Shown here: positions 85 through 36,797 of the stretch, one piece after another
Numbering within the stretch: position 1 is the stretch's first letter
Layout: every line of letters starts with the position of its first letter
Source of the DNA: a virus
Direction: 5' to 3' (one strand)
Virus record (IMG/VR): IMGVR_UViG_3300005264_000002
Coordinates: 1-64,000 of that record
DNA length: 64,000 bases
The notes under the pieces: model-generated
The model's input: the letters and a program-made list of their open reading frames with translations, nothing else
The model's database searches: none
What the model was told of the DNA's origin: nothing
Translations under genes and position numbers: made by a program

Positions 85-366
85 GTGATTAAAGCAATTA
101 AAACCTATTTAAGGTATCGTAAGATTAGAAGATTATTTATTAAGTTTCTTAAGGACAATGATATCTATTATGCTTTCCAACTAGAACTAGATGCTGATCT
201 TGAATATTTTGATTTTAATAGTTATGTAAAAGAAAAAATATCATCAGGATTAGGATATGGCCTAATCTCATCAGCTTTTTCATGGGATCTTTCTCCTCAA
301 GGGCATACTTTTTGGGATAAGTTAAATGATAAATGGCAAGACATCATTATCGGAGTCAATAAATGA
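85..366 (+). CDS. hypothetical phage protein
   Basis: 93-aa ORF, AGGAGG RBS upstream, overlaps next ORF (ATGA coupling). Confidence 0.7.
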   Translation: MIKAIKTYLRYRKIRRLFIKFLKDNDIYYAFQLELDADLEYFDFNSYVKEKISSGLGYGLISSAFSWDLSPQGHTFWDKLNDKWQDIIIGVNK

Positions 367-22912: not shown

Positions 22913-23626
22913 TTGATAATGAAAGTATTAAATTTTATCATAAATATTTTAAGTAAAACTATTGGAGAATGGCATTTTCCTTGGGTTGATAAAAAATTTA
23001 ACCTTAAAGATTATTTTCTGATTGAGGGCCAAATTAGAAAATTATCTTCTCCTTTTGTTGTAGGAGTAGTTAAGACTAATGGTCATGGATCAAATTTGTT
23101 AATTAGATTCGCTCAATTATTTTCTAAAGATGCAAGAAAAAGAAAAGGTGAAATTACTCATGCATTAGCTCATATTGGAATCTATGATGGGTATAAGCAT
23201 AGAGTTGTTGAATCTTTAGGTGATGGGATAAGAGAACATTCTCTATTGGAATCTATTGGTCAAAGAGATACTGTAATTTTAAGGCGGCCAAATCCAAAAT
23301 TTTTAAATCCAACATTATGCAATCATGCCATTGATTATATTAAAGAGGTGGCCAAAAGAGATGCTTTCAATAATATCGAGTATGATAATGATCATGACTA
23401 TAAAACTATCCCAATAGAAGATATTATGGATTACACTAATACTAAGAATCTAAAATTAGATTGTAGCGAGACAGTAATGCAAGCTCTTGAGCATGGTTTT
23501 AGAATGACTGGCCAAGTTAGTATAATCAAAATGGTTAAGAGAGGAGGAAAGCTTACCTGGATACCAGCAGATATACTTTTTTCTGATCTTTTTATTACTA
23601 TGTATGATTCAAGAAAGGAAAAGTAA
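22913..23626 (+). CDS. permuted papain-like (NlpC/P60, YiiX/YaeF-type) amidase
   Basis: His before Cys: THALAHIG...VVES...YD...DCSE.V...IPADI. Confidence 0.7.
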   Translation: MIMKVLNFIINILSKTIGEWHFPWVDKKFNLKDYFLIEGQIRKLSSPFVVGVVKTNGHGSNLLIRFAQLFSKDARKRKGEITHALAHIGIYDGYKHRVVESLGDGIREHSLLESIGQRDTVILRRPNPKFLNPTLCNHAIDYIKEVAKRDAFNNIEYDNDHDYKTIPIEDIMDYTNTKNLKLDCSETVMQALEHGFRMTGQVSIIKMVKRGGKLTWIPADILFSDLFITMYDSRKEK

Positions 23627-24780
23627 TGGCAGAATATCAAACACTCCTTAAACCTAATGCTTGGATAGATCCTCTTTCGTTAGCGGATCATTTAGATATT
23701 AAGCATATAAAAATTGACGTAATAGCAAATAAAGCTGAGGTTAATATCCAGGATATTTTATGGCAAGCAATTCTTGGGGGAATTGAGGGAAATGATTATT
23801 CTGTTGAATATACAATTGGAGCTGTTGCAGGATCGGAGGTTGTTTCAACCGTTGCTAATAAGATAGTTATTCAAATTGAAGATGGAGTTTCTTTAAATAG
23901 TCAGATAAAAATAGCATTTGATGCTTTTGTTGTCGCTAATCCTTTAAGTATCGCTTCAAATATTTCTGCTAGTATCGTATCAGACCTCTCTCCTAATGGG
24001 GTTGTTGCTACGCCTTTAATTGGAGGAACTAATCCGGATTCAGAACATGCATCAACTCTTAGAAAATTAGAAAGATTTATTAATAGAGCTTGTTCCAGAA
24101 TTGAGCAATATATTGATACATCAGCAATGGCCAAATGTTTCCAGGAAGATCTAGACGCAAATAATTCTAATGTTATTGTCCCTACTCATTGGCCAGTTAA
24201 AAGAATTCATGAAATTAAAATAGATTTTAATCGTCAATTTTCATCTTTTACAAAGCTTCTTCCAGAAAATTATTTCTTAAGAGGAACTCCCGATAGAAAT
24301 AGAAATGACCAGGAAGGAGAAATTTCTGAAGTAGATATGTGTACTCAAATCCTTAATGGAAGTGTTGATATAAATTTAATCGGGAATGATATTGTTCTTA
24401 GAGATGATAATGAAAGATTTATTGTTGGAAGGATATTTGCAGGATCTTCTTTAGGTTCGATTAGAGTAACTTATGACGCTGGTTGGATTGTTGGAAAAGA
24501 ATCATCTATTGATGAGGATACTGGAACAACTGTTTTTAATTTTTCTTTTATCCCTGATGATTTGGAATATGCAGCAACTCTTCTTTGTGAATGGTGGTAT
24601 TTCCAAAGAGATAGGAAAGATCTTGGGATTACTTCCAAAGGTGTTAGGGGAGAAAATTATTCCAAAATCGAAACTGGAATGCCAAGTGAAATCCAAGATA
24701 TCTTAGAAGCTTATAGAGATTTTTCTTTTGGTCAACACAATACACCTCAAAGAAATATAATGCTGGATATTGATTCATGA
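23626..24780 (+). CDS. head-tail adaptor (gp6/gp15-like) with inserted module
   Basis: L..FI.RA...IE.YI, RVTYDAGW, IPDDL..A..L motifs; insertion at ~23731-24027. Confidence 0.75.
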   Translation: MAEYQTLLKPNAWIDPLSLADHLDIKHIKIDVIANKAEVNIQDILWQAILGGIEGNDYSVEYTIGAVAGSEVVSTVANKIVIQIEDGVSLNSQIKIAFDAFVVANPLSIASNISASIVSDLSPNGVVATPLIGGTNPDSEHASTLRKLERFINRACSRIEQYIDTSAMAKCFQEDLDANNSNVIVPTHWPVKRIHEIKIDFNRQFSSFTKLLPENYFLRGTPDRNRNDQEGEISEVDMCTQILNGSVDINLIGNDIVLRDDNERFIVGRIFAGSSLGSIRVTYDAGWIVGKESSIDEDTGTTVFNFSFIPDDLEYAATLLCEWWYFQRDRKDLGITSKGVRGENYSKIETGMPSEIQDILEAYRDFSFGQHNTPQRNIMLDIDS

Positions 24781-25271
24781 AATTAAGCCTTTATACAAAT
24801 GCAGATTTAGTTGTCCGTCAAATGGACAAAGATGCAGCGGCCATTAATAAGGCCATGCAATTTGCTATGTTTAGGGCCGTATCTATTTTAGAAGCTGAGA
24901 TTAAACAAAATATTAGATCAAGATCTGGTTTGCGTGTTAGGACAGGAACTCTTCTAAATTCGATTCAACATCACATATTTATCGGGAATGGGAGAGTTGA
25001 AGCAGAAATAGGTCCAAGAAATGTCCCTTATGCTGCGATTCATGAATTTGGGGGAACTATTCCTTCCAGATTTGTTAGTCCAGTAAGGAAAAAGGCCTTA
25101 AGATTTTTTGATAAAAGTGGAGTCCCAAGATTTTCAAAAGGTCATACCATTCCAGCAATTACTATTAGACCTAGACCATATATCGCTCCTGCTGTTGAAG
25201 CTACTCAAGATAAAATAGCTGAGACTTTTGGAGTATTTATTGAAGAAGCTTTAAAAATGAATGTAGGATAA
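24777..25271 (+). CDS. neck/tail-completion protein (HK97 gp10 / Mu gpG-like)
   Basis: RTGTLLNSI, YAAIHEFGG, PRPYIAPA. Confidence 0.85.
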   Translation: MKLSLYTNADLVVRQMDKDAAAINKAMQFAMFRAVSILEAEIKQNIRSRSGLRVRTGTLLNSIQHHIFIGNGRVEAEIGPRNVPYAAIHEFGGTIPSRFVSPVRKKALRFFDKSGVPRFSKGHTIPAITIRPRPYIAPAVEATQDKIAETFGVFIEEALKMNVG

Positions 25272-25274
25272 AAT

Positions 25275-25784
25275 ATGACAAGCTTAACACAACCAGAAGT
25301 ACAAGAAATCGATAGTCAAATCTCAGGCATTAGATCTAAGCGTGGTCGAATAATGGAGGGGTTAAGATTAATTTTTGAACAATCAATTAAAAGATCAAAT
25401 GGATATACTGTTGATTTAGATGAGGCAACTTTTATAATTAGAGGTTGGCAAGATAGAACAAAAGAAACTACTCCTGTTATTTATATTGTTGATGATAACC
25501 AGAATCGTTCAAGAAATGCTGGATGTTTAAGGAATTATGATTGGGTGATTCAGCTATATGTTCATTATCATGGTGACAATTTAATTGAATTTGAAGAATT
25601 TATTGCTGATGTTGAAGAATGTATTGATGATAATAATACTATTGCTCAACAAATTAATAAAATGGAAGTTGAAAATATTATTTCAGATGGACAATTATTT
25701 GCTTCTGAAGATACGGCAGAACATCATTTGGCCCAAATTACTCTTGGGATAATTTACACTCGTAAAGCAAGGAATCCACGTTAA
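25275..25784 (+). CDS. tail terminator protein
   Basis: size, position, GYT motif, acidic/beta pattern. Confidence 0.65.
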   Translation: MTSLTQPEVQEIDSQISGIRSKRGRIMEGLRLIFEQSIKRSNGYTVDLDEATFIIRGWQDRTKETTPVIYIVDDNQNRSRNAGCLRNYDWVIQLYVHYHGDNLIEFEEFIADVEECIDDNNTIAQQINKMEVENIISDGQLFASEDTAEHHLAQITLGIIYTRKARNPR

Positions 25785-25790
25785 AAATCA

Positions 25791-25803
25791 TTGGTGTATA
25801 TAT
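25791..25803 (+). promoter_or_regulatory. late-type promoter motif
   Basis: TTGGTGTATATAT. Confidence 0.6.
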
Positions 25804-25846
25804 ATTCTGTAAACCTCATATCACTACAAAATGGGAAGGAACAGAT

Positions 25847-26458
25847 ATGTCACATTATAGATCAAATTCACACATACAAAATCGACTACTTAAAATTGAA
25901 GATATTTTTCCTGTAAGAGTCTCTGAAGTTCTTGCCTCATTAATTGAGCAAGATTTAACTTTTACAGCAAAAGCTGGAACTGGAGAGCAAGGTAATTTAA
26001 TAAATATCATTTATGTAGCTGGAGCCGTAGCTGGAGCTGAAGTTGTTACTGTTGTTGGGAATAATATCGAAGTTCAAATAGAAGATGGTGTTTCTGATGC
26101 AACTCAAATTAAAGCTGCTCTTGATGGAGAGCCTCTTGCACTTGCTACAATCACAACTTCAATAAGTGGAGTTGGAGCAAATCCTCAGTCTGTTTTTACT
26201 CCTGCTAAGTTTCTTGCTGGTGGAGTTACAGAAATACCTGGTAAGCAAAGATCTTTTGTTTTTCGGCACTTAGCAACTGATGTAAGAGTTGATGGAAGAG
26301 AAATGACCAGTGTTGATTTTCAAGCAAATGGTGGTTTAGATATTACTTTTGATGCTGGTGGATCATCTTTTACTGTCGTTAAAGCAGATATAACAATTAT
26401 TAATCGTTTAAGAACTAAGAGATATCTCGTAGATGCCTCTGCAGTTACAATAGTTTAA
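25847..26458 (+). CDS. virion protein carrying one copy of the shared ~100-aa module
   Basis: LIEQDLTF.AK...GN.I.I.Y..G..AG.EVVTV...IEDGVS...LAGG. Confidence 0.75.
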   Translation: MSHYRSNSHIQNRLLKIEDIFPVRVSEVLASLIEQDLTFTAKAGTGEQGNLINIIYVAGAVAGAEVVTVVGNNIEVQIEDGVSDATQIKAALDGEPLALATITTSISGVGANPQSVFTPAKFLAGGVTEIPGKQRSFVFRHLATDVRVDGREMTSVDFQANGGLDITFDAGGSSFTVVKADITIINRLRTKRYLVDASAVTIV

Positions 26459-26467
26459 GGATAAGTC

Positions 26468-26782
26468 ATGAGTAAAGGTAAATATTTCTTAAAAACTTTA
26501 GAGAAAGCAATTTATGCAAATGAAGCTTTTCTTAATGATGAGAAAATTGAGCTTGTAAGTCCATGTTGTGATGGGAATCGAGTCGCTCATGCTGATGGGG
26601 ATTTTGTTTGTGATAAAATTAAAGTAGTTCTTAAAGGCAAAAAAAGAATCGCTTATTTTTTTACAGCACCTATTCTTGATGAAGCTCCTGCTAAGGAAAA
26701 ACCTGTTAAGAAAAAAACAGCTAAAAAAGTAACCAAAAAAACAGCTAAAAAAGTAACCAAAAAAACAGCTAAAAAAGTATAA
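26468..26782 (+). CDS. protein with histone H1-like Lys-rich C-terminal repeat
   Basis: (KKTAKKVT)x3 tail. Confidence 0.7.
   Translation: MSKGKYFLKTLEKAIYANEAFLNDEKIELVSPCCDGNRVAHADGDFVCDKIKVVLKGKKRIAYFFTAPILDEAPAKEKPVKKKTAKKVTKKTAKKVTKKTAKKV
26711..26780 (+). repeat. 24-bp tandem repeat x3
   Basis: aaaaaaacagctaaaaaagtaacc. Confidence 0.95.
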
Positions 26783-26794
26783 GGAAGGATAATT

Positions 26795-28372
26795 ATGAGA
26801 AATCTTAATTCACGTTCATTTGAAGTTTTAGGAGTTGACCAAAAAATTTGGTTGTCTCAAGAAACTGGAGGATATGGAGAGGCTGCGACAGGGGGCCTAA
26901 TCCCTGATGAGACAGGAGCAATCGAACACATAACTGCTGATGTCAAATTTGATATTCCTAGAGAGGATTCTGCAGCAAGATCAGGTAGATCTTTAGTTAC
27001 TCGATTGAGTGGAAAGATCAATGTAGAATTTTCTTTTGAAAGCTATATTATTCCTGGTACTCCTGATGCACTTGGGAATCCAACTTTTCCTCCTACTCAT
27101 GCTTTTATTCTTTCAGCTTTTGGAGATGTTGATACGTCTAATCCTGCTGAAATCGTTTATAAGCTTTCTAGGTTAAATGATAAATCTTTCAGACTTATTG
27201 AAGAAGCAACTCATTACGCTAGGCTTACTACTGGTTGCGTAATTGATACGGTGACTTTTTCTCTCCCTGGAGATGGGAAAGCTCAATTTAAGGCTGATGG
27301 ATTTGCTCAGAATTCTTTTATAGCTGGTGAAGGTAATTTGTCTCAAGCTATAACTGGTGTTGAGCAATTGGCCCAATTAATAGAGCAAGATTTAACTTTT
27401 GATGCCAAGCCAGGTTCAGGAATTAATGGAAATCTTATCAATATTATTTATATTGCTGGTGGTGTTGCTGGATCTGAGGTTGTTACTGTTGTTGATAATG
27501 ATATTGAAGTGCAAATTGATGATGGTGTTTCCAGTGCTCTTGAAGTTAAAACTGCTTTAGATGGGAATATTGATGCAGCAGCCTTAATTACCACAACTAT
27601 AAGTGGTGTCCCTGGTGGTTCACAGTCAATATTTACTCCTGCTAAATATCTAGTAGGTGGGCTTGGAACTAATGATATCAAAGTTGGAGATGGTGAAGGC
27701 AACAGATATGAAGTTGGAGCTTTAATTGATATTATCCAAGGTGTTGATGGCAACACAATCATAGAATCTCAAAGAGAAATCACTGTTGTTTATGATATCA
27801 CGAGTCCTAATGCTGATATCATAACAGTTGGTGGAGCTGCTCTTGCTGCTTCTGTAATTGGAGATTTTGTTATTGGCCATGCTCCAGAAAATTATGATCC
27901 AATAACTTCTGAAAATGCTCTTTTAGGTTTAAAGGGATCTTTTTCAGTAGCAGGATATCAACTTTCTGAATGTGAAATGATTACTGCTGAAATAGCAATA
28001 GCAAATAATTATACTAAGAAAGATTTCATTTATGGAACTAATAAAATTTGTGGATATATCCCTGATAAAAGACGTTCTGTAACTTTGAAAGTAGATGTTC
28101 TTTTGAATAAAAATAACTTCTCTTTCTATATGAGAAATAAGAAGTTTGTTGCTGAGAATGTGACTTTGACTCTTGAGCCAAATGATATTCCTGCTCCATC
28201 TTTCGCAAGTTCTGTGGGAAGGACTTTTGAATTTAATCTTCCAAAAGTAGAGTTTAATATTCCGTCTATTGAGAATCCTGGTGATTCTTATGTGACTCTA
28301 AGCCTTGAAGGTGTAGCTTTGGCAACATCTACAAATAGCTTAGATGATGAAATGACTCTTACCATTAAGTAA
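26795..28372 (+). CDS. major tail (tube) protein with internal insertion domains
   Basis: QETGGYG N-terminus, TGCVIDTVTFS, FNLPKVEF; followed by terminator and chaperones. Confidence 0.8.
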   Translation: MRNLNSRSFEVLGVDQKIWLSQETGGYGEAATGGLIPDETGAIEHITADVKFDIPREDSAARSGRSLVTRLSGKINVEFSFESYIIPGTPDALGNPTFPPTHAFILSAFGDVDTSNPAEIVYKLSRLNDKSFRLIEEATHYARLTTGCVIDTVTFSLPGDGKAQFKADGFAQNSFIAGEGNLSQAITGVEQLAQLIEQDLTFDAKPGSGINGNLINIIYIAGGVAGSEVVTVVDNDIEVQIDDGVSSALEVKTALDGNIDAAALITTTISGVPGGSQSIFTPAKYLVGGLGTNDIKVGDGEGNRYEVGALIDIIQGVDGNTIIESQREITVVYDITSPNADIITVGGAALAASVIGDFVIGHAPENYDPITSENALLGLKGSFSVAGYQLSECEMITAEIAIANNYTKKDFIYGTNKICGYIPDKRRSVTLKVDVLLNKNNFSFYMRNKKFVAENVTLTLEPNDIPAPSFASSVGRTFEFNLPKVEFNIPSIENPGDSYVTLSLEGVALATSTNSLDDEMTLTIK

Positions 28373-28489: not shown

Positions 28490-28957
28490 ATGTCTTTGAA
28501 ACGCTTAAACCCTAATTCTATTTTTAAAATTTGTTCTACTCAAGATCCTGCTATTGATAAAGAGGCAACAGGAGAAGAGAATTTAACGAAATATTCTGAA
28601 ACTCACGATATAGCTTTGCTTAAATTCGTTGAAGGGAAACTTCCTACAATTTTTCATGTAAAAAATATTTCTCCAGAAGATGAAGCTGAAATCCAAGAGG
28701 ATCATTATGTTATCCAAATGCCAGATCTCGACAAATTAGAAGGCGAAAAACTTAAAAAAGCAAAACCATCAGTAAAACAGGTTAAACAACAACAAATGTT
28801 TATGAAATATTTTAAAGCTGGAGTTAAGCATATTGAAGATGATGGGAAGATTGAACCAACATTCACTCCAGGAGAATGGCCATTGTCAATTCAACAAGAG
28901 ATCGGTGGATATATTATGATCAAATCTGCTTTAGGAGCAGAAGAAAAAAAGTCTTAA
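28490..28957 (+). CDS. tail assembly chaperone (G-like)
   Basis: lies between tail tube and tape measure; ends EEKKS at slippery site. Confidence 0.8.
   Translation: MSLKRLNPNSIFKICSTQDPAIDKEATGEENLTKYSETHDIALLKFVEGKLPTIFHVKNISPEDEAEIQEDHYVIQMPDLDKLEGEKLKKAKPSVKQVKQQQMFMKYFKAGVKHIEDDGKIEPTFTPGEWPLSIQQEIGGYIMIKSALGAEEKKS
28945..28951 (+). other. programmed -1 frameshift site A AAA AAG
   Basis: XXXYYYZ heptamer just before the G stop; the -1 frame is open to 29334. Confidence 0.85.
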
Positions 28958-29334
28958 CTGTCATGATGGGGCTGGCATTAGATCAAAATCAAAATGTCAA
29001 ATTAGATTGCTCCAATTGTGACTTGGGACTTCAAAATTTAAGGAATTGCGGTGGGAGGTTTAGAGAGAAGTCTAGATCTCCTATTAGAGTAAATGAAGAA
29101 ATTTATTGGATATGTCCAAGATCTTTGATTTTTAATAGGAAGGTAGAAAGTCAACTCTTCAATCTCTATATGACTTGTAAGGACAATAATGTTTTTCCTT
29201 ATGGAGCAGAGCCGCTTAAACAAACGTCCTTTTGTTTAGATGTGTTTAAGTTTTTAGATGGAATTTTAAGTGAATATCACGCCAGAAAAGACAAAGAACA
29301 CAAAGCTAAAATGGAGAAGGCCAATAAGATTTAA
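28945..29334 (+). CDS. tail chaperone frameshift extension (GT-like)
   Basis: -1 frame ORF (track 28876..29334), CSNC...C...CP motif. Confidence 0.75.
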   Translation, partial: KKVLTVMMGLALDQNQNVKLDCSNCDLGLQNLRNCGGRFREKSRSPIRVNEEIYWICPRSLIFNRKVESQLFNLYMTCKDNNVFPYGAEPLKQTSFCLDVFKFLDGILSEYHARKDKEHKAKMEKANKI

Positions 29335-34358: not shown

Positions 34359-36797
34359 ATGTCACAGAACATATTCAAAAATCCATTTGTATCATCTCCT
34401 CCAACTTTAACAGGAGCATCAGTTGGAAATGGGACATTAACGATAGATCGTTTGACTCATTTCACAATAAACCAAGATTATACTGCTGTTTGTACAGCGA
34501 TAACTCCTTTTACTGTTTTTAAAATTATTGGAAGTTTAGATGGATCTGTTGGAGTTGCTGTTGTTGGGACTCAATTCTATGATCAAGATCTTAAGGTTTT
34601 CTTAACTATTAATCAAGGTCCAACTACTTTTCAAATTGGTGATACTTTTGAATTTACTCTTGATCAAGGGACAGATCTAAATAGAGAAAATATTGATTTA
34701 TATGATGAATTACCTCAAAAGAATTTTGGGGTAGGTGTTCCAGGCTCAATATCTGGTGATTATAATATCAGATTAAATACTACTGGAATTGATGCTTTTA
34801 GAATTATCCAAGACTTAAAATTCACTTCTAAAATCTCAGGTGCAGAAGGGAATGAAATTTCTATAGAATATCTTGCTGGATCTGTTTTGAGTCCTGCATC
34901 ATTAATTATCCAAGATTTAACTTATACTGCTTCACCAGGTGAAGCTGGGAATGGAATATCAATTCTATATACTCAATTCACTCCTGGAGTTGCGGCCACT
35001 AGAGATGTTCAAGATATTAATTGGACAGCAGATAATATTGGGGTAAATGGAAATTATATTTCAATGGTTTATATTGGTGGAGGAACTGCTGGTTCTGAAA
35101 TTGTTAATGTAACAGGGACAGGAACAGGCGGCGATCCATATATAATCACAGTCACTATTGAGGATGGAGTTTCTTCCGCTGATCAAATTAGATTGGCCGT
35201 TGGACTTCATGGAGTGGCTGGACCGCTAGTTGATGGGATTGCTCTTGGGACAGGATTAGAGCCTCAAAGTATTCAAGCTCAGATCTTTCTTTTAGGTGGA
35301 TTAGATCCAATTGGTGACGCTGGAAATGAAGTTGTCAATGTAGTTGCTCTTCAGATTGAAGTTATTTTAGAAAGTGGAGTTTCAACTGCTCAAAATGTTT
35401 ATGATGCTGTTTTTGCCTCTCCTGCTGCTTTAGCATTAGTTACCCCTACAATTTCAGGGACTCCAGCTACAACTCAAACTGCCCCTGTTGCTGAGGCAAA
35501 TTTAACAGGTGGAGCAGATGATGTTGGATTACCAGGATCAGAAGTTGTCAATGTATCTGACAAGGCCATTGAGGTCACTTTTAATGATGGATTATCTACT
35601 GCTGATCAAATTAAAACAGCAATTGAAGGAGATATTGATGCTAATGCCCTGGTTACAGTAACTATTGAAGGTGTTGGGGCCAATTTCCAAGACTCTCCTG
35701 TTGTTAGAACATTTCTTAGATCGGGACAATTGGCCGGGACTTTTGCTTTTAACTCTGAAGAGTTAACCGTTCCTGGTTCTTTTTTTGAAGGTAATGCCAA
35801 TATTTTAGCAAACAATCTTAACCTTCAAAATGAATTAAATGTTGAAGGAGAGTCCGAATTTAGAGGAAAAGTTAAATTCGATGATGCTATTCCAGCAAAT
35901 AATTCAGGTCCATTAATCGAAAATAATCAAAAAACAATTAATAATCTTATCCAAAATGGAAAAGTTTTTCTTCATACAGTAAATGATGAAAAAATGGAGT
36001 GGTCAGATCCTGCTGGGACATTAACGCTTTTAGATGACATTAATATTGTATTTTGTGAAACTAATATTGTTAATACAATTCTAGCTACTGATGGGCCATT
36101 TGTTATTGCTGATGGTGAGCATTTATATGTGACAGTTGATAGAGAGAATAATGTTAATCTTACGACTACAATAGCTTCTACTGTTCCAAATAGTCCTAAT
36201 GGAGAAAATATTTTTAGATTAGTTTCTAGGGTAGGTGATTCATTAGTCTGGTTTGATAATACTCTTCAAACTGAAGGCAAGAATATTAGAATAGGTGAAG
36301 GTGGAGCTGGTGGAGTTGGCTATCAAGAAAAGTTAGGAAATGGCGATGGAGCAGTTACAGCTTTTGGCCCTTTAACTTTTATTCCATCTTCTGAAAAATC
36401 CATTCTTGTTTTTTCAAATGTTATTAATTTTGTAACAACTGATTGGACATATAATGTAGTCCAAAATCAAATTGACTTTATAACACCACCTCCTTTGGGA
36501 GCAGAAATTTATGTCTTTTATTTAACAGAAGGTGAAACTTTATCAGTTCCTACTCCAAGTGGAGTAGAACGTGTTGAATATAGAGATATAACTTTAGCTG
36601 AAGAAACTGCCAAACAATTGACATTAGCAAATCTTCCTGCTGAACCAACTAAAGTTAAATTAGATATTATTGGTGGATCAGCTCAAAGATATACGGTTGA
36701 TTTTATTGTTACAGGAAGCATTTTGTCATGGAGTGGTTTAAGACTTGATGGAGTCTTAGTTGAAAATAGTGAAGTAAGGATAAATTATTATTCTTAA
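34359..36797 (+). CDS. multidomain tail/appendage protein with three nested copies of the shared module
   Basis: GNGTL..., TI.QG...F..GD.F.F domain; triple QDL/GN/EVV/GVS/GG pattern; C-terminal GDG...F adaptor domains. Confidence 0.8.
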   Translation: MSQNIFKNPFVSSPPTLTGASVGNGTLTIDRLTHFTINQDYTAVCTAITPFTVFKIIGSLDGSVGVAVVGTQFYDQDLKVFLTINQGPTTFQIGDTFEFTLDQGTDLNRENIDLYDELPQKNFGVGVPGSISGDYNIRLNTTGIDAFRIIQDLKFTSKISGAEGNEISIEYLAGSVLSPASLIIQDLTYTASPGEAGNGISILYTQFTPGVAATRDVQDINWTADNIGVNGNYISMVYIGGGTAGSEIVNVTGTGTGGDPYIITVTIEDGVSSADQIRLAVGLHGVAGPLVDGIALGTGLEPQSIQAQIFLLGGLDPIGDAGNEVVNVVALQIEVILESGVSTAQNVYDAVFASPAALALVTPTISGTPATTQTAPVAEANLTGGADDVGLPGSEVVNVSDKAIEVTFNDGLSTADQIKTAIEGDIDANALVTVTIEGVGANFQDSPVVRTFLRSGQLAGTFAFNSEELTVPGSFFEGNANILANNLNLQNELNVEGESEFRGKVKFDDAIPANNSGPLIENNQKTINNLIQNGKVFLHTVNDEKMEWSDPAGTLTLLDDINIVFCETNIVNTILATDGPFVIADGEHLYVTVDRENNVNLTTTIASTVPNSPNGENIFRLVSRVGDSLVWFDNTLQTEGKNIRIGEGGAGGVGYQEKLGNGDGAVTAFGPLTFIPSSEKSILVFSNVINFVTTDWTYNVVQNQIDFITPPPLGAEIYVFYLTEGETLSVPTPSGVERVEYRDITLAEETAKQLTLANLPAEPTKVKLDIIGGSAQRYTVDFIVTGSILSWSGLRLDGVLVENSEVRINYYS

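What the first reader, a model, noticed from the sequence alone, without database searches (positions are those of the whole stretch)
23731..27661. Same module plugged into four unrelated virion proteins: a shared decoration system
Seen: single copies sit as in-frame insertions in the head-tail adaptor (~23731-24027), in ORF 25847 (~25931-26224) and in the major tail tube (~27368-27661), plus three in ORF 34359, giving six copies. The 25847 and tube copies are similar even at DNA level (ttaat.gagcaagatttaactttt, gttgttactgttgtt, tttactcctgctaa), which implies recent duplication or gene conversion. In the tube it appears inserted inside another insertion domain. There are no intein termini. Inference: the neck, the whole tail tube and the tip are coated with one module, functionally analogous to phage Ig-like domains (adhesion, or a docking site for a partner) but apparently from a different family. 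This is the best candidate for an undescribed system in this window.
Basis: partly seen in the sequence, partly recalled or inferred. Interest (0 to 1): 0.78.

Follow-up and report, generated by a model that had tools for sequence, protein, structure and literature searches.

The report
Sheath-type plug-in domain decorating siphophage tail
An uncultured long-tailed phage carries the same ~95-residue, self-folding surface domain in its neck adaptor, a small protein next to the tube gene, its tail tube and a distal tail protein. The domain is a distant relative of the outer add-on domain of contractile tail sheaths, so it is a new family of a known kind of virion ornament, not a new system.

Summary
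A ~98-aa module lies in frame at the stated coordinates in the adaptor, ORF 25847 and the tail tube. ORF 34359 holds three more module-equivalents, arranged as three N-halves followed by three C-halves.

Homologues of all three single-copy hosts exist without the module, with clean boundaries, so it is a true insertion and not part of their folds. It is dispensable and mobile:
- Its presence in the tube gene needs at least 3, and most parsimoniously 8, gains or losses.
- The small protein carries it at two different sites in different phages.
- The copies in the small protein branch with tube copies.

The module is not Ig-like. AlphaFold2 gives a confident alpha/beta domain (pLDDT 94). Its best structural matches are the external extension domain of tail sheaths (phiCD508 Z 7.2, DSY3957 Z 5.5). 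Pfam Phage_sheath_domII matches related copies collinearly but below its threshold; the window's own copies gave no match.

The family is large: 1393 protein clusters, including sheaths, adaptors, fibres and giant proteins. No match came from the cultured-phage collection (tblastn, two queries).

The tube protein is a T5 pb6 / P74-26-type tandem tube.

Function is inferred only: accessory adhesion or docking.

The scan has noted the same kind of module on other DNA (e1-3272389, e1-3778141, e1-5376946).

The parts
23626..24780 (+). Head-tail adaptor gene (384 aa), gp6/HCP-like
   Evidence: Pfam HCP 3.3e-6 and phrog_442 head-tail adaptor 2.4e-9, both on the C-terminal part.
23731..24027 (+). Module copy in the adaptor (aa 36-134), in the loop after the N-terminal helix
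   Evidence: Module-less adaptors of 234-271 aa in L014 and L016-L018 align only from aa ~146 onward.
25847..26458 (+). Small protein upstream of the tube gene (203 aa); its bare homologues are about 95-105 aa
   Evidence: Bare homologues in L011, L013 and L015-L018. No Pfam or PHROG match. Virion role inferred from synteny only.
25931..26224 (+). Module copy in the small protein (aa 29-126), at insertion site A
   Evidence: L009, L010 and L012 carry the module about 40 residues further downstream, at site B.
26795..28372 (+). Major tail tube protein (525 aa), tandem tube-domain type
   Evidence: Pfam Phage_tube_2. AF2 pLDDT 90.3. VIA matches: SH-Ab15497 Z 26.4, P74-26 Z 25.8, T5 pb6 Z 22.8.
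27368..27661 (+). Module copy in the tube (aa 192-289)
   Evidence: Clean ~105-aa indel against ~414-aa homologues. AF2 of the module alone gives pLDDT 94.2.
27326..27880 (+). Small beta domain between the two tube domains (aa 178-191 plus 292-362), interrupted by the module
   Evidence: VIA aligns 74-77 residues spanning 178..362 to small beta domains: 9in6_M Z 9.1, 7w1c_A Z 8.7. The domain is present in module-less homologues.
34359..36797 (+). 812-aa distal-tail protein, two genes after the tape measure
   Evidence: Assigned by gene order only. No Pfam, PHROG or PDB sequence match.
34800..34973 (+). Two N-half hairpins of the module (aa 148-174 and 181-205)
34998..35306 (+). Contiguous full module (aa 214-316), the innermost unit of the array
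35319..35726 (+). Two C-halves of the module (aa 321-387 and 393-456)

Best explanation
The module is an autonomous alpha/beta domain of about 95 residues. It has an N-terminal hairpin part of ~28 aa and a C-terminal beta-beta-alpha-beta-beta part of ~65 aa. It is a divergent relative of the external 'sheath extension domain' of contractile tails (Pfam Phage_sheath_domII).

Here it serves as a plug-in decoration on a non-contractile, T5 pb6 / P74-26-type tail. It is spliced into loops of the adaptor, of a small protein encoded next to the tube gene, and of the tube protein (inside a small beta domain between the two tube domains). It also forms a three-unit array in the 812-aa distal-tail protein.

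Shown:
- It is an insertion.
- It is dispensable.
- It has been gained, lost and moved repeatedly, including copying or conversion between genes.
- It belongs to a large family of mostly uncultured-phage virion proteins.

Inferred:
- It projects from the virion surface.
- It acts as a multivalent, low-affinity adhesion or docking domain, as proposed for Ig-like domains and for extra sheath domains.
- Expected dose, if the adaptor forms the 12-mer usual for gp6-like adaptors: 12 copies at the neck. With three copies per trimeric tube ring and roughly 50 rings, the tube would carry about 150 copies. The ring number is estimated from the 1381-aa tape measure at about 1.5 A per residue.
For: Repeat is real:
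- An HMM from three copies finds the others at 1e-10 to 1e-14.

It is an insertion:
- Tube homologues split into ~520-aa and ~414-aa forms with a clean gap at aa 188-291.
- Adaptors and small proteins without the module exist.

It is mobile and dispensable:
- On a tube-core tree the insert needs 8 changes, at least 3 of them forced by well-supported branches.
- There are two insertion sites in the small protein.
- The window's small-protein copy is sister to the window's tube copy (99/95).
- With closer relatives added, the small-protein copies fall into three separate groups, two of them each paired with a tube copy. P0243 and P0007 are 83% identical (96/97).
- The distal-tail protein keeps the array even in phages whose tube and adaptor lack the module (L016-L018).

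Fold:
- AF2 pLDDT 94.2, pTM 0.86.
- The three best of 48,161 chains are sheath proteins, matched at residues ~95-205: 9gb1_1 Z 7.2, rmsd 3.0 A, 91 aa; 3hxl_A Z 5.5; 9ezm_A Z 5.3. Five further sheaths appear lower in the list.
- That range is the external sheath extension domain, residues 91-203 in Milano gp20 (PMC10811340).

Sequence link to PF17481:
- It hits module copies over profile positions 5-98 of 98, at 4.5e-5, 1.3e-4 and 2.9e-4 in related phages.
- P0231 residues 276-374 score 1.9e-5.
- 10 of 27 copies match at E<=1; the next most frequent family matches 2.

Family size and hosts:
- 1393 clusters at E<=1e-3.
- Hosts include tail sheaths, adaptors, baseplate wedge proteins and fibres.

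Evolutionary rate:
- The module averages 49% identity against 65-67% for the tube cores, as expected of a peripheral domain.
Against: - The window's own copies do not hit PF17481 even at E<=10. All hits in relatives lie below the curated cut-off of 31.4 bits.
- The structural Z of 7.2 is in the range the tool calls possibly 'a common arrangement'. Foldseek found nothing in the PDB.
- No coordinates were available, so surface exposure and closeness of the module's termini are not measured.
- No binding partner or ligand is identified.
- The small protein and the 812-aa protein are not proven to be virion components.
Confidence: 0.7

Rival explanations
1. The module is a docking site. A separate phage protein, for example a side fibre or a neck or whisker protein, binds the same module wherever it is displayed, so one partner coats the neck, tube and distal tail.
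For: The same module at several stations would suit a single partner. In phiCD508 the sheath's outer domain III is ordered only where it contacts a baseplate wing domain (PMC11948020).
Against: No candidate partner gene co-varies with module presence in the loci examined. Module content differs freely between genes and phages, which does not fit a fixed partner. Not tested directly.
Confidence: 0.15
2. The module is a structural cement. Neighbouring modules contact each other or the host proteins and stiffen or stabilise the tail, as YSD1 domain2 does in its tube ring.
For: Extra tube or sheath domains can add ring interfaces (PMC8718954; PMC9230969).
Against: Closely related tubes work without it, with repeated gain and loss. 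The homologous sheath domain is flexible and makes no neighbour contacts in phiCD508 (PMC13324602). It evolves faster than the cores.
Confidence: 0.1
3. The segment is an integral part of each host protein's fold, or a chance compositional similarity.
For: None beyond the in-frame position.
Against: Clean presence/absence in homologues of three hosts. It folds confidently on its own. HMM E-values reach 1e-14 for copies not used to build the model.
Confidence: 0.01
4. It is an ordinary Ig-like (Big_2, FN3, I-set) tail decoration that Pfam merely misses.
For: It has the same positions and the same gain-and-loss behaviour as Ig-like domains on lambda gpV and T5 pb6 (PMC8718954).
Against: The predicted fold contains a helix pair of ~17 residues plus a short helix. 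No Ig-type Pfam family recurs among the copies: one of 27 gave a single weak hit to an Ig-like domain at E 0.043, against 10 for PF17481. The structural neighbours that rank first are sheath external domains.
Confidence: 0.03

Closest known systems
External sheath extension domain of contractile tails (Pfam PF17481 Phage_sheath_domII). Examples: phiCD508 gp55 domain III, DSY3957 residues ~97-181, Milano gp20 SED residues 91-203.
   Same: - About 100 residues, inserted in a loop of a structural protein.
- Best structural matches (Z 7.2, 5.5, 5.3).
- Collinear weak HMM matches.
- Some family members sit at that same position in real sheath proteins, e.g. P0237 (DUF3383, module at 133-229).
- Reported as flexible and dispensable, with unknown function (PMC13324602, PMC9230969).
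   Different: - This phage has no sheath. The hosts are a tube, an adaptor, a small neck-region protein and a distal-tail protein.
- Scores lie below Pfam's threshold, and the window's copies are not detected at all.
- Arrays with several N-halves followed by several C-halves have, to my knowledge, not been described for sheath domains.
Ig-like accessory domains on phage virion proteins: Big_2 on lambda gpV and T5 pb6, FN3 on SPP1 gp17.1*, T4 Hoc.
   Same: - The same behaviour: dispensable, surface-type modules exchanged among unrelated structural proteins.
- Proposed to bind cell-surface carbohydrates weakly (PMC8718954; PMC9230969).
   Different: - A different fold, alpha/beta rather than an all-beta sandwich.
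- Internal loop insertions rather than mostly C-terminal appendages.
T5 pb6 / P74-26 / SH-Ab15497 tandem tail tube proteins (the host protein, not the module).
   Same: Two fused tube domains: Z 22.8-26.4 over 281-305 residues. This implies trimeric rings.
   Different: The window's protein carries a small beta domain plus the module between the two tube domains. pb6 instead has a C-terminal Ig-like domain.

Membership tests
Pfam PF17481 Phage_sheath_domII | HMM score at or above the curated cut-off (31.4 bits) | tested here: not met
   Window copies give no hit at E<=1 or E<=10. Related copies score 15.6-25.5 bits at E 1.9e-5 to 2.9e-4, full-length and collinear. 10 of 27 copies match at E<=1.
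Pfam PF17481 Phage_sheath_domII | Fold of the external domain of solved sheath proteins | tested here: met
   VIA-wide ranks 1-3 are sheath proteins matched at residues ~95-205: Z 7.2 (rmsd 3.0 A, 91 of 99 aa), 5.5 and 5.3. Five more sheaths appear lower. The Z values are moderate, and Foldseek found nothing in the PDB.
Pfam PF17481 Phage_sheath_domII | Sits as an insertion in the body domain of a tail sheath protein | tested here: not met
   None of the four host proteins here is a sheath: adaptor, T5 pb6/P74-26-type tandem tube, and two proteins without Pfam or PHROG matches. No sheath family matched any protein examined in the tail module. PF17481 itself found nothing in the record, a weak test because the window's own copies escape that model. 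Other family members do sit in sheaths (phrog_205 and phrog_279; DUF3383 protein P0237).
Ig-like virion decoration domains (Big_2, FN3, I-set) | All-beta Greek-key sandwich and a match to an Ig-type profile | tested here: not met
   The AF2 model has a helix pair of ~17 residues plus a short helix. No recurrent Ig-type Pfam hit: one of 27 copies gave a single weak Ig-like hit at E 0.043.
Inteins | N-terminal Cys/Ser, C-terminal His-Asn followed by Cys/Ser/Thr, and a Hint fold | tested here: not met
   The boundaries read LAQLIEQ... to ...LVGG/LGT and equivalents. No Hint match in Pfam.
Tandem (pb6-type) tail tube proteins, as the class of the host protein | Two tube domains in one chain, superposable on pb6, P74-26 or SH-Ab15497 | tested here: met
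   Z 26.4, 25.8 and 22.8. Single tube domains align separately to aa 8-180 and to aa 370-525. Foldseek E 3e-13 to T5.

The most novel reading that the evidence does not exclude
The module family is an insertion-prone domain that also inserts into its own N/C junction loop. This would build 'out-and-back' nested rods (N^k C^k, with k up to 7 in database proteins). The family would be the same lineage as the sheath extension domain, moving freely between contractile and non-contractile tails, necks, fibres and giant adhesin-like proteins. That would be a second, Ig-independent universal decoration currency of tailed phages, seen so far almost only in uncultured viruses.
Probability: 0.35. Interest if true: 0.7.

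Novelty: new variant of a known kind. Interest (0 to 1): 0.52.

Why it matters
Accessory surface domains on phage particles are thought to tune adsorption and host range. Nearly all of that discussion rests on Ig-like folds.

This work shows that a different fold, that of the sheath's outer add-on domain, behaves in the same promiscuous way. It sits on a non-contractile tail and forms a family of well over a thousand protein clusters that no curated database names.

The result gives annotators a handle on many 'hypothetical' stretches in virion proteins. It gives a natural series of with/without variants at defined sites for testing what such domains do. It also suggests that the unexplained outer domain of many sheaths is a general-purpose module and is not specific to contraction.

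Tried and rejected
- **Cultured phages:** tblastn and blastn against INPHARED found nothing with the tube protein, the 6-kb region, or a four-module protein.
- **Locus search with the module:** The search for related loci failed with both the module alignment and the single module. The tube alignment worked.
- The contigs of the closest relatives could not be fetched. I therefore could not confirm that P0243 and P0007 share a contig, nor examine gene conversion at the DNA level.
- **PDB by sequence profile:** only noise.
- **Foldseek:** nothing in the PDB. BFVD gave only uncharacterised viral proteins.
- **ESM Atlas:** only 'hypothetical protein' clusters.
- **Flagellin_IN lead:** from memory, I suspected that the alternative insert in P0116 and the module's beta-alpha-beta core resemble the Flagellin_IN motif. 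Pfam gave no such hit at E<=1, so I dropped it.
- **DUF7290 and DUF7243:** only sporadic weak hits.
- **Origin of the module:** the tree of 27 module copies is mostly unresolved at depth. 'Ancestral in the distal-tail protein' therefore rests on distribution, not on phylogeny.
Full report
**Setting**

The window is part of a 76-kb IMG/VR virus record, estimated 91% complete and about 33% GC. It has no nucleotide or protein match among 50,697 deposited phage genomes.

Positions 20-45 kb hold a neck and tail module of the long non-contractile type, in this order:
- adaptor (23626)
- a Neck1/tail-completion protein (24777)
- a 169-aa protein
- ORF 25847
- a 104-aa protein
- tube (26795)
- two overlapping small ORFs
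- a 1381-aa tape measure
- a 276-aa protein
- ORF 34359
- minor tail and fibre proteins

No sheath family matched any protein examined.

Yes.

An HMM built from those three alone finds the ORF 34359 units independently, at 3.6e-14, 6.4e-10 and 1.1e-13. It finds nothing else in the six frames of the window.

The ORF 25847 and tube copies are 69% identical in protein and 70% in DNA without gaps. The three quoted DNA strings occur in both.

The module has two parts:
- an N-half of ~28 aa (IQDLTFTA..G..GN.I.I.Y)
- a C-half of ~65 aa (GSEVV.V....I.VQIE.GVS.A.QIK.A.....A.L.......G......L.GG)

In ORF 34359 the order is N, N, N+C, C, C. So there are three module-equivalents, but only the innermost one is contiguous.

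**Is it an insertion?**

Yes, in every host that could be tested.

- **Tube.** Tube homologues fall into forms of about 520 aa and about 414 aa. The alignment shows one clean gap at aa 188-291 of the window protein.
- **Adaptor.** In eleven related viral contigs (L009-L019), adaptors with the module are 341-365 aa. Adaptors without it are 234-271 aa and align only from aa ~146 onward. The module sits in the loop after the N-terminal helix.
- **ORF 25847.** It has bare homologues of roughly 95-105 aa in L011, L013 and L015-L018.

**Tube architecture**

AlphaFold2 of the whole tube protein gave pLDDT 90.3. The model superposes on the tandem tube proteins of SH-Ab15497 (Z 26.4), P74-26 (Z 25.8) and T5 pb6 (Z 22.8). 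Single tube domains align separately to aa 8-180 and to aa 370-525.

Between the two tube domains lies a small beta domain, aa 178-191 plus 292-362. It matches small beta domains in a VP1 capsid protein (Z 9.1) and in a K1 lyase (Z 8.7). The module interrupts this domain.

The tube should form trimeric rings, as pb6 does (PMC8718954).

**Mobility**

- The ORF 34359 homologue carries the N-N-NC-C-C array in L009, L010, L012 and L015-L018. In L014 only a full module plus one C-half were detected. L013 is cut off by the contig end, and L011 does not reach the gene.
- L016-L018 have bare tubes, adaptors and small proteins, yet keep the array.
- The more distant L019 has no copy.
- On a tree of 73 tube cores, built with the insert columns removed, presence of an insert needs 8 changes. 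At least 3 are forced by strongly supported branches.
- The small protein carries the module at two different places. Site A, after aa ~28, is used in the window, P0274 and P0243. Site B, about 40 residues further on, is used in L009, L010 and L012.
- In the tree of 27 module copies, the window's small-protein copy is sister to the window's tube copy (99/95), inside a group of tube copies.
- With closer relatives added, the small-protein copies do not form one clade. Three origins or conversions are forced.
- P0243 groups with the tube copy of P0007 (96/97). The two are 83% identical, against 68% to its positional orthologue in the window.
- P0243 and P0007 come from contigs of identical length (14,520 nt) and the same source.

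At 69-70% identity, however, the window's own pair is not recent in absolute terms.

**What is the module?**

- Pfam and PHROGs do not cover the window's copies.
- A PDB sequence-profile search gives only noise.
- AlphaFold2 on an alignment of 27 copies gives a confident compact domain: pLDDT 94.2, pTM 0.86. Its elements are strand, strand, short helix, strand, then strand, strand, a helix pair of ~17 residues, strand, strand.
- Foldseek finds nothing in the PDB.
- The exhaustive VIA-align search puts three sheath proteins on top, all matched over residues ~95-205:
  - phiCD508 gp55: Z 7.2, rmsd 3.0 A, 91 of 99 residues
  - DSY3957: Z 5.5
  - a Halogeometricum sheath: Z 5.3
- phiKZ, P1, A-1(L), phi-kp24 and T4 gp18 follow lower in the list.

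That range is the external 'sheath extension domain', residues 91-203 in Milano gp20 (PMC10811340). In phiCD508 the corresponding outer domain III is described as flexible, without neighbour contacts, and of unknown role (PMC11948020, PMC13324602).

Sequence evidence agrees:
- Pfam PF17481 (Phage_sheath_domII) matches module copies in related phages over profile positions 5-98 of 98, at per-genome E-values of 4.5e-5, 1.3e-4 and 2.9e-4.
- It matches residues 276-374 of the module-bearing protein P0231 at 1.9e-5.
- It is by far the most frequent weak hit among the 27 copies: 10 copies, against 2 for the next family.

All of these scores lie under Pfam's cut-off, and the window's own copies are missed altogether. 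I therefore file the module as a divergent relative with the same fold. It is not a member by Pfam's criterion.

**How widespread is it?**

- A profile of the window's copies finds 1393 cluster representatives at E<=1e-3 and 618 at E<=1e-10, among 1.84 billion. The proteins range from 200 to 5977 aa, with up to 22 matched stretches.
- A sample of 67 includes tail sheaths (phrog_205, phrog_279, DUF3383), adaptors (HCP, SU10_adaptor), baseplate wedge proteins, tail fibre proteins, an ice-binding-like protein and others.
- The sheath protein P0237 has the module at aa 133-229. Its cultured relatives match only the rest of the protein.
- A four-module protein has no tblastn match in cultured phages at E<=1e-3.
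- ESM Atlas neighbours are all 'hypothetical'.

I scanned the 150 best hits plus the four window proteins with separate N-half and C-half models. This shows both tandem (NCNC...) and bracket-like arrays: NNNCCC in 29 proteins, NNCC in 19, and also NNNNCCCC, N5C5, NNCCNNCC and N7C8.

Tandem duplication cannot produce such balanced patterns. Repeated insertion of a module into the N/C junction loop of another would. The result would be an out-and-back chain with both ends at the base. This supports the nested reading of note e1-6094458, but the physical pairing of halves was not verified.

**Function**

Nothing here measures function. Three observations bear on it:
- The module evolves faster than the tube cores: 49% against 65-67% mean identity to the window protein. 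Its rate is similar to that of the small beta domain, at 52%.
- It is dispensable in three hosts.
- Its solved relatives sit on the outside of sheaths.

The literature proposes adhesion or stabilisation for extra sheath domains, and weak carbohydrate binding for Ig-like domains (PMC9230969; PMC8718954).

I therefore favour a multivalent accessory adhesion or scanning role. A docking platform and a cementing role are rivals. Which of these applies is the least secure part of the account.

**Comparison and novelty**

The behaviour is that of the well-known Ig-like decorations. The fold and probable ancestry are those of the sheath extension domain.

As far as I could find, the following are new:
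- the use of this fold on a non-contractile tube, an adaptor and other non-sheath proteins
- the size of the unnamed family
- the two-part, self-nesting architecture

Two literature searches found no description.

Earlier notes of this scan report the same kind of module on other DNA (e1-3272389, e1-3778141, e1-5376946). Within the scan it is therefore a recurrent theme and not a singular find.

Noticed in passing
window 26468-26782 (+): A 104-aa ORF lies between ORF 25847 and the tube gene. It ends in a lysine-rich tandem repeat (KKTAKKVT, about three units). An ORF with a similarly basic C-terminus lies at the same place in L015; the other related loci showed no such ORF there.
   Followed up: no
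proteins P0116, P0059, P0060, P0070, P0074 (tube homologues): These tube proteins carry a different insert of ~110-120 aa at exactly the same site as the module. The inserts are 18-35% identical to the module and have no Pfam match. The site looks like a hotspot where different ornaments are exchanged.
   Followed up: partly
L014:3244-4335 (+): The small-protein homologue of this high-GC relative is 364 aa. It carries a ~270-aa Ala/Gly/Thr-rich insert of another kind at site B, with no Pfam match.
   Followed up: partly
proteins P0125, P0126, P0132, P0128: Database proteins with extreme arrays. P0125 has seven N-halves followed by eight C-halves. P0128 reads NNCCNNCC. The giant proteins of 3886 and 5977 aa have 20-22 matched stretches.
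   Followed up: partly
window 28490-28957 and 28876-29334 (+): Two overlapping ORFs lie between the tube and tape-measure genes, in the usual place of tail assembly chaperones made by programmed frameshifting. The slippery site was not examined.
   Followed up: no
window 34359-34780 (+), aa 1-140 of ORF 34359: The N-terminal ~140 aa is the only part conserved in the distant relative L019 (52% identity). L019 lacks the module array altogether. This is probably the part that anchors the protein in the tail.
   Followed up: no
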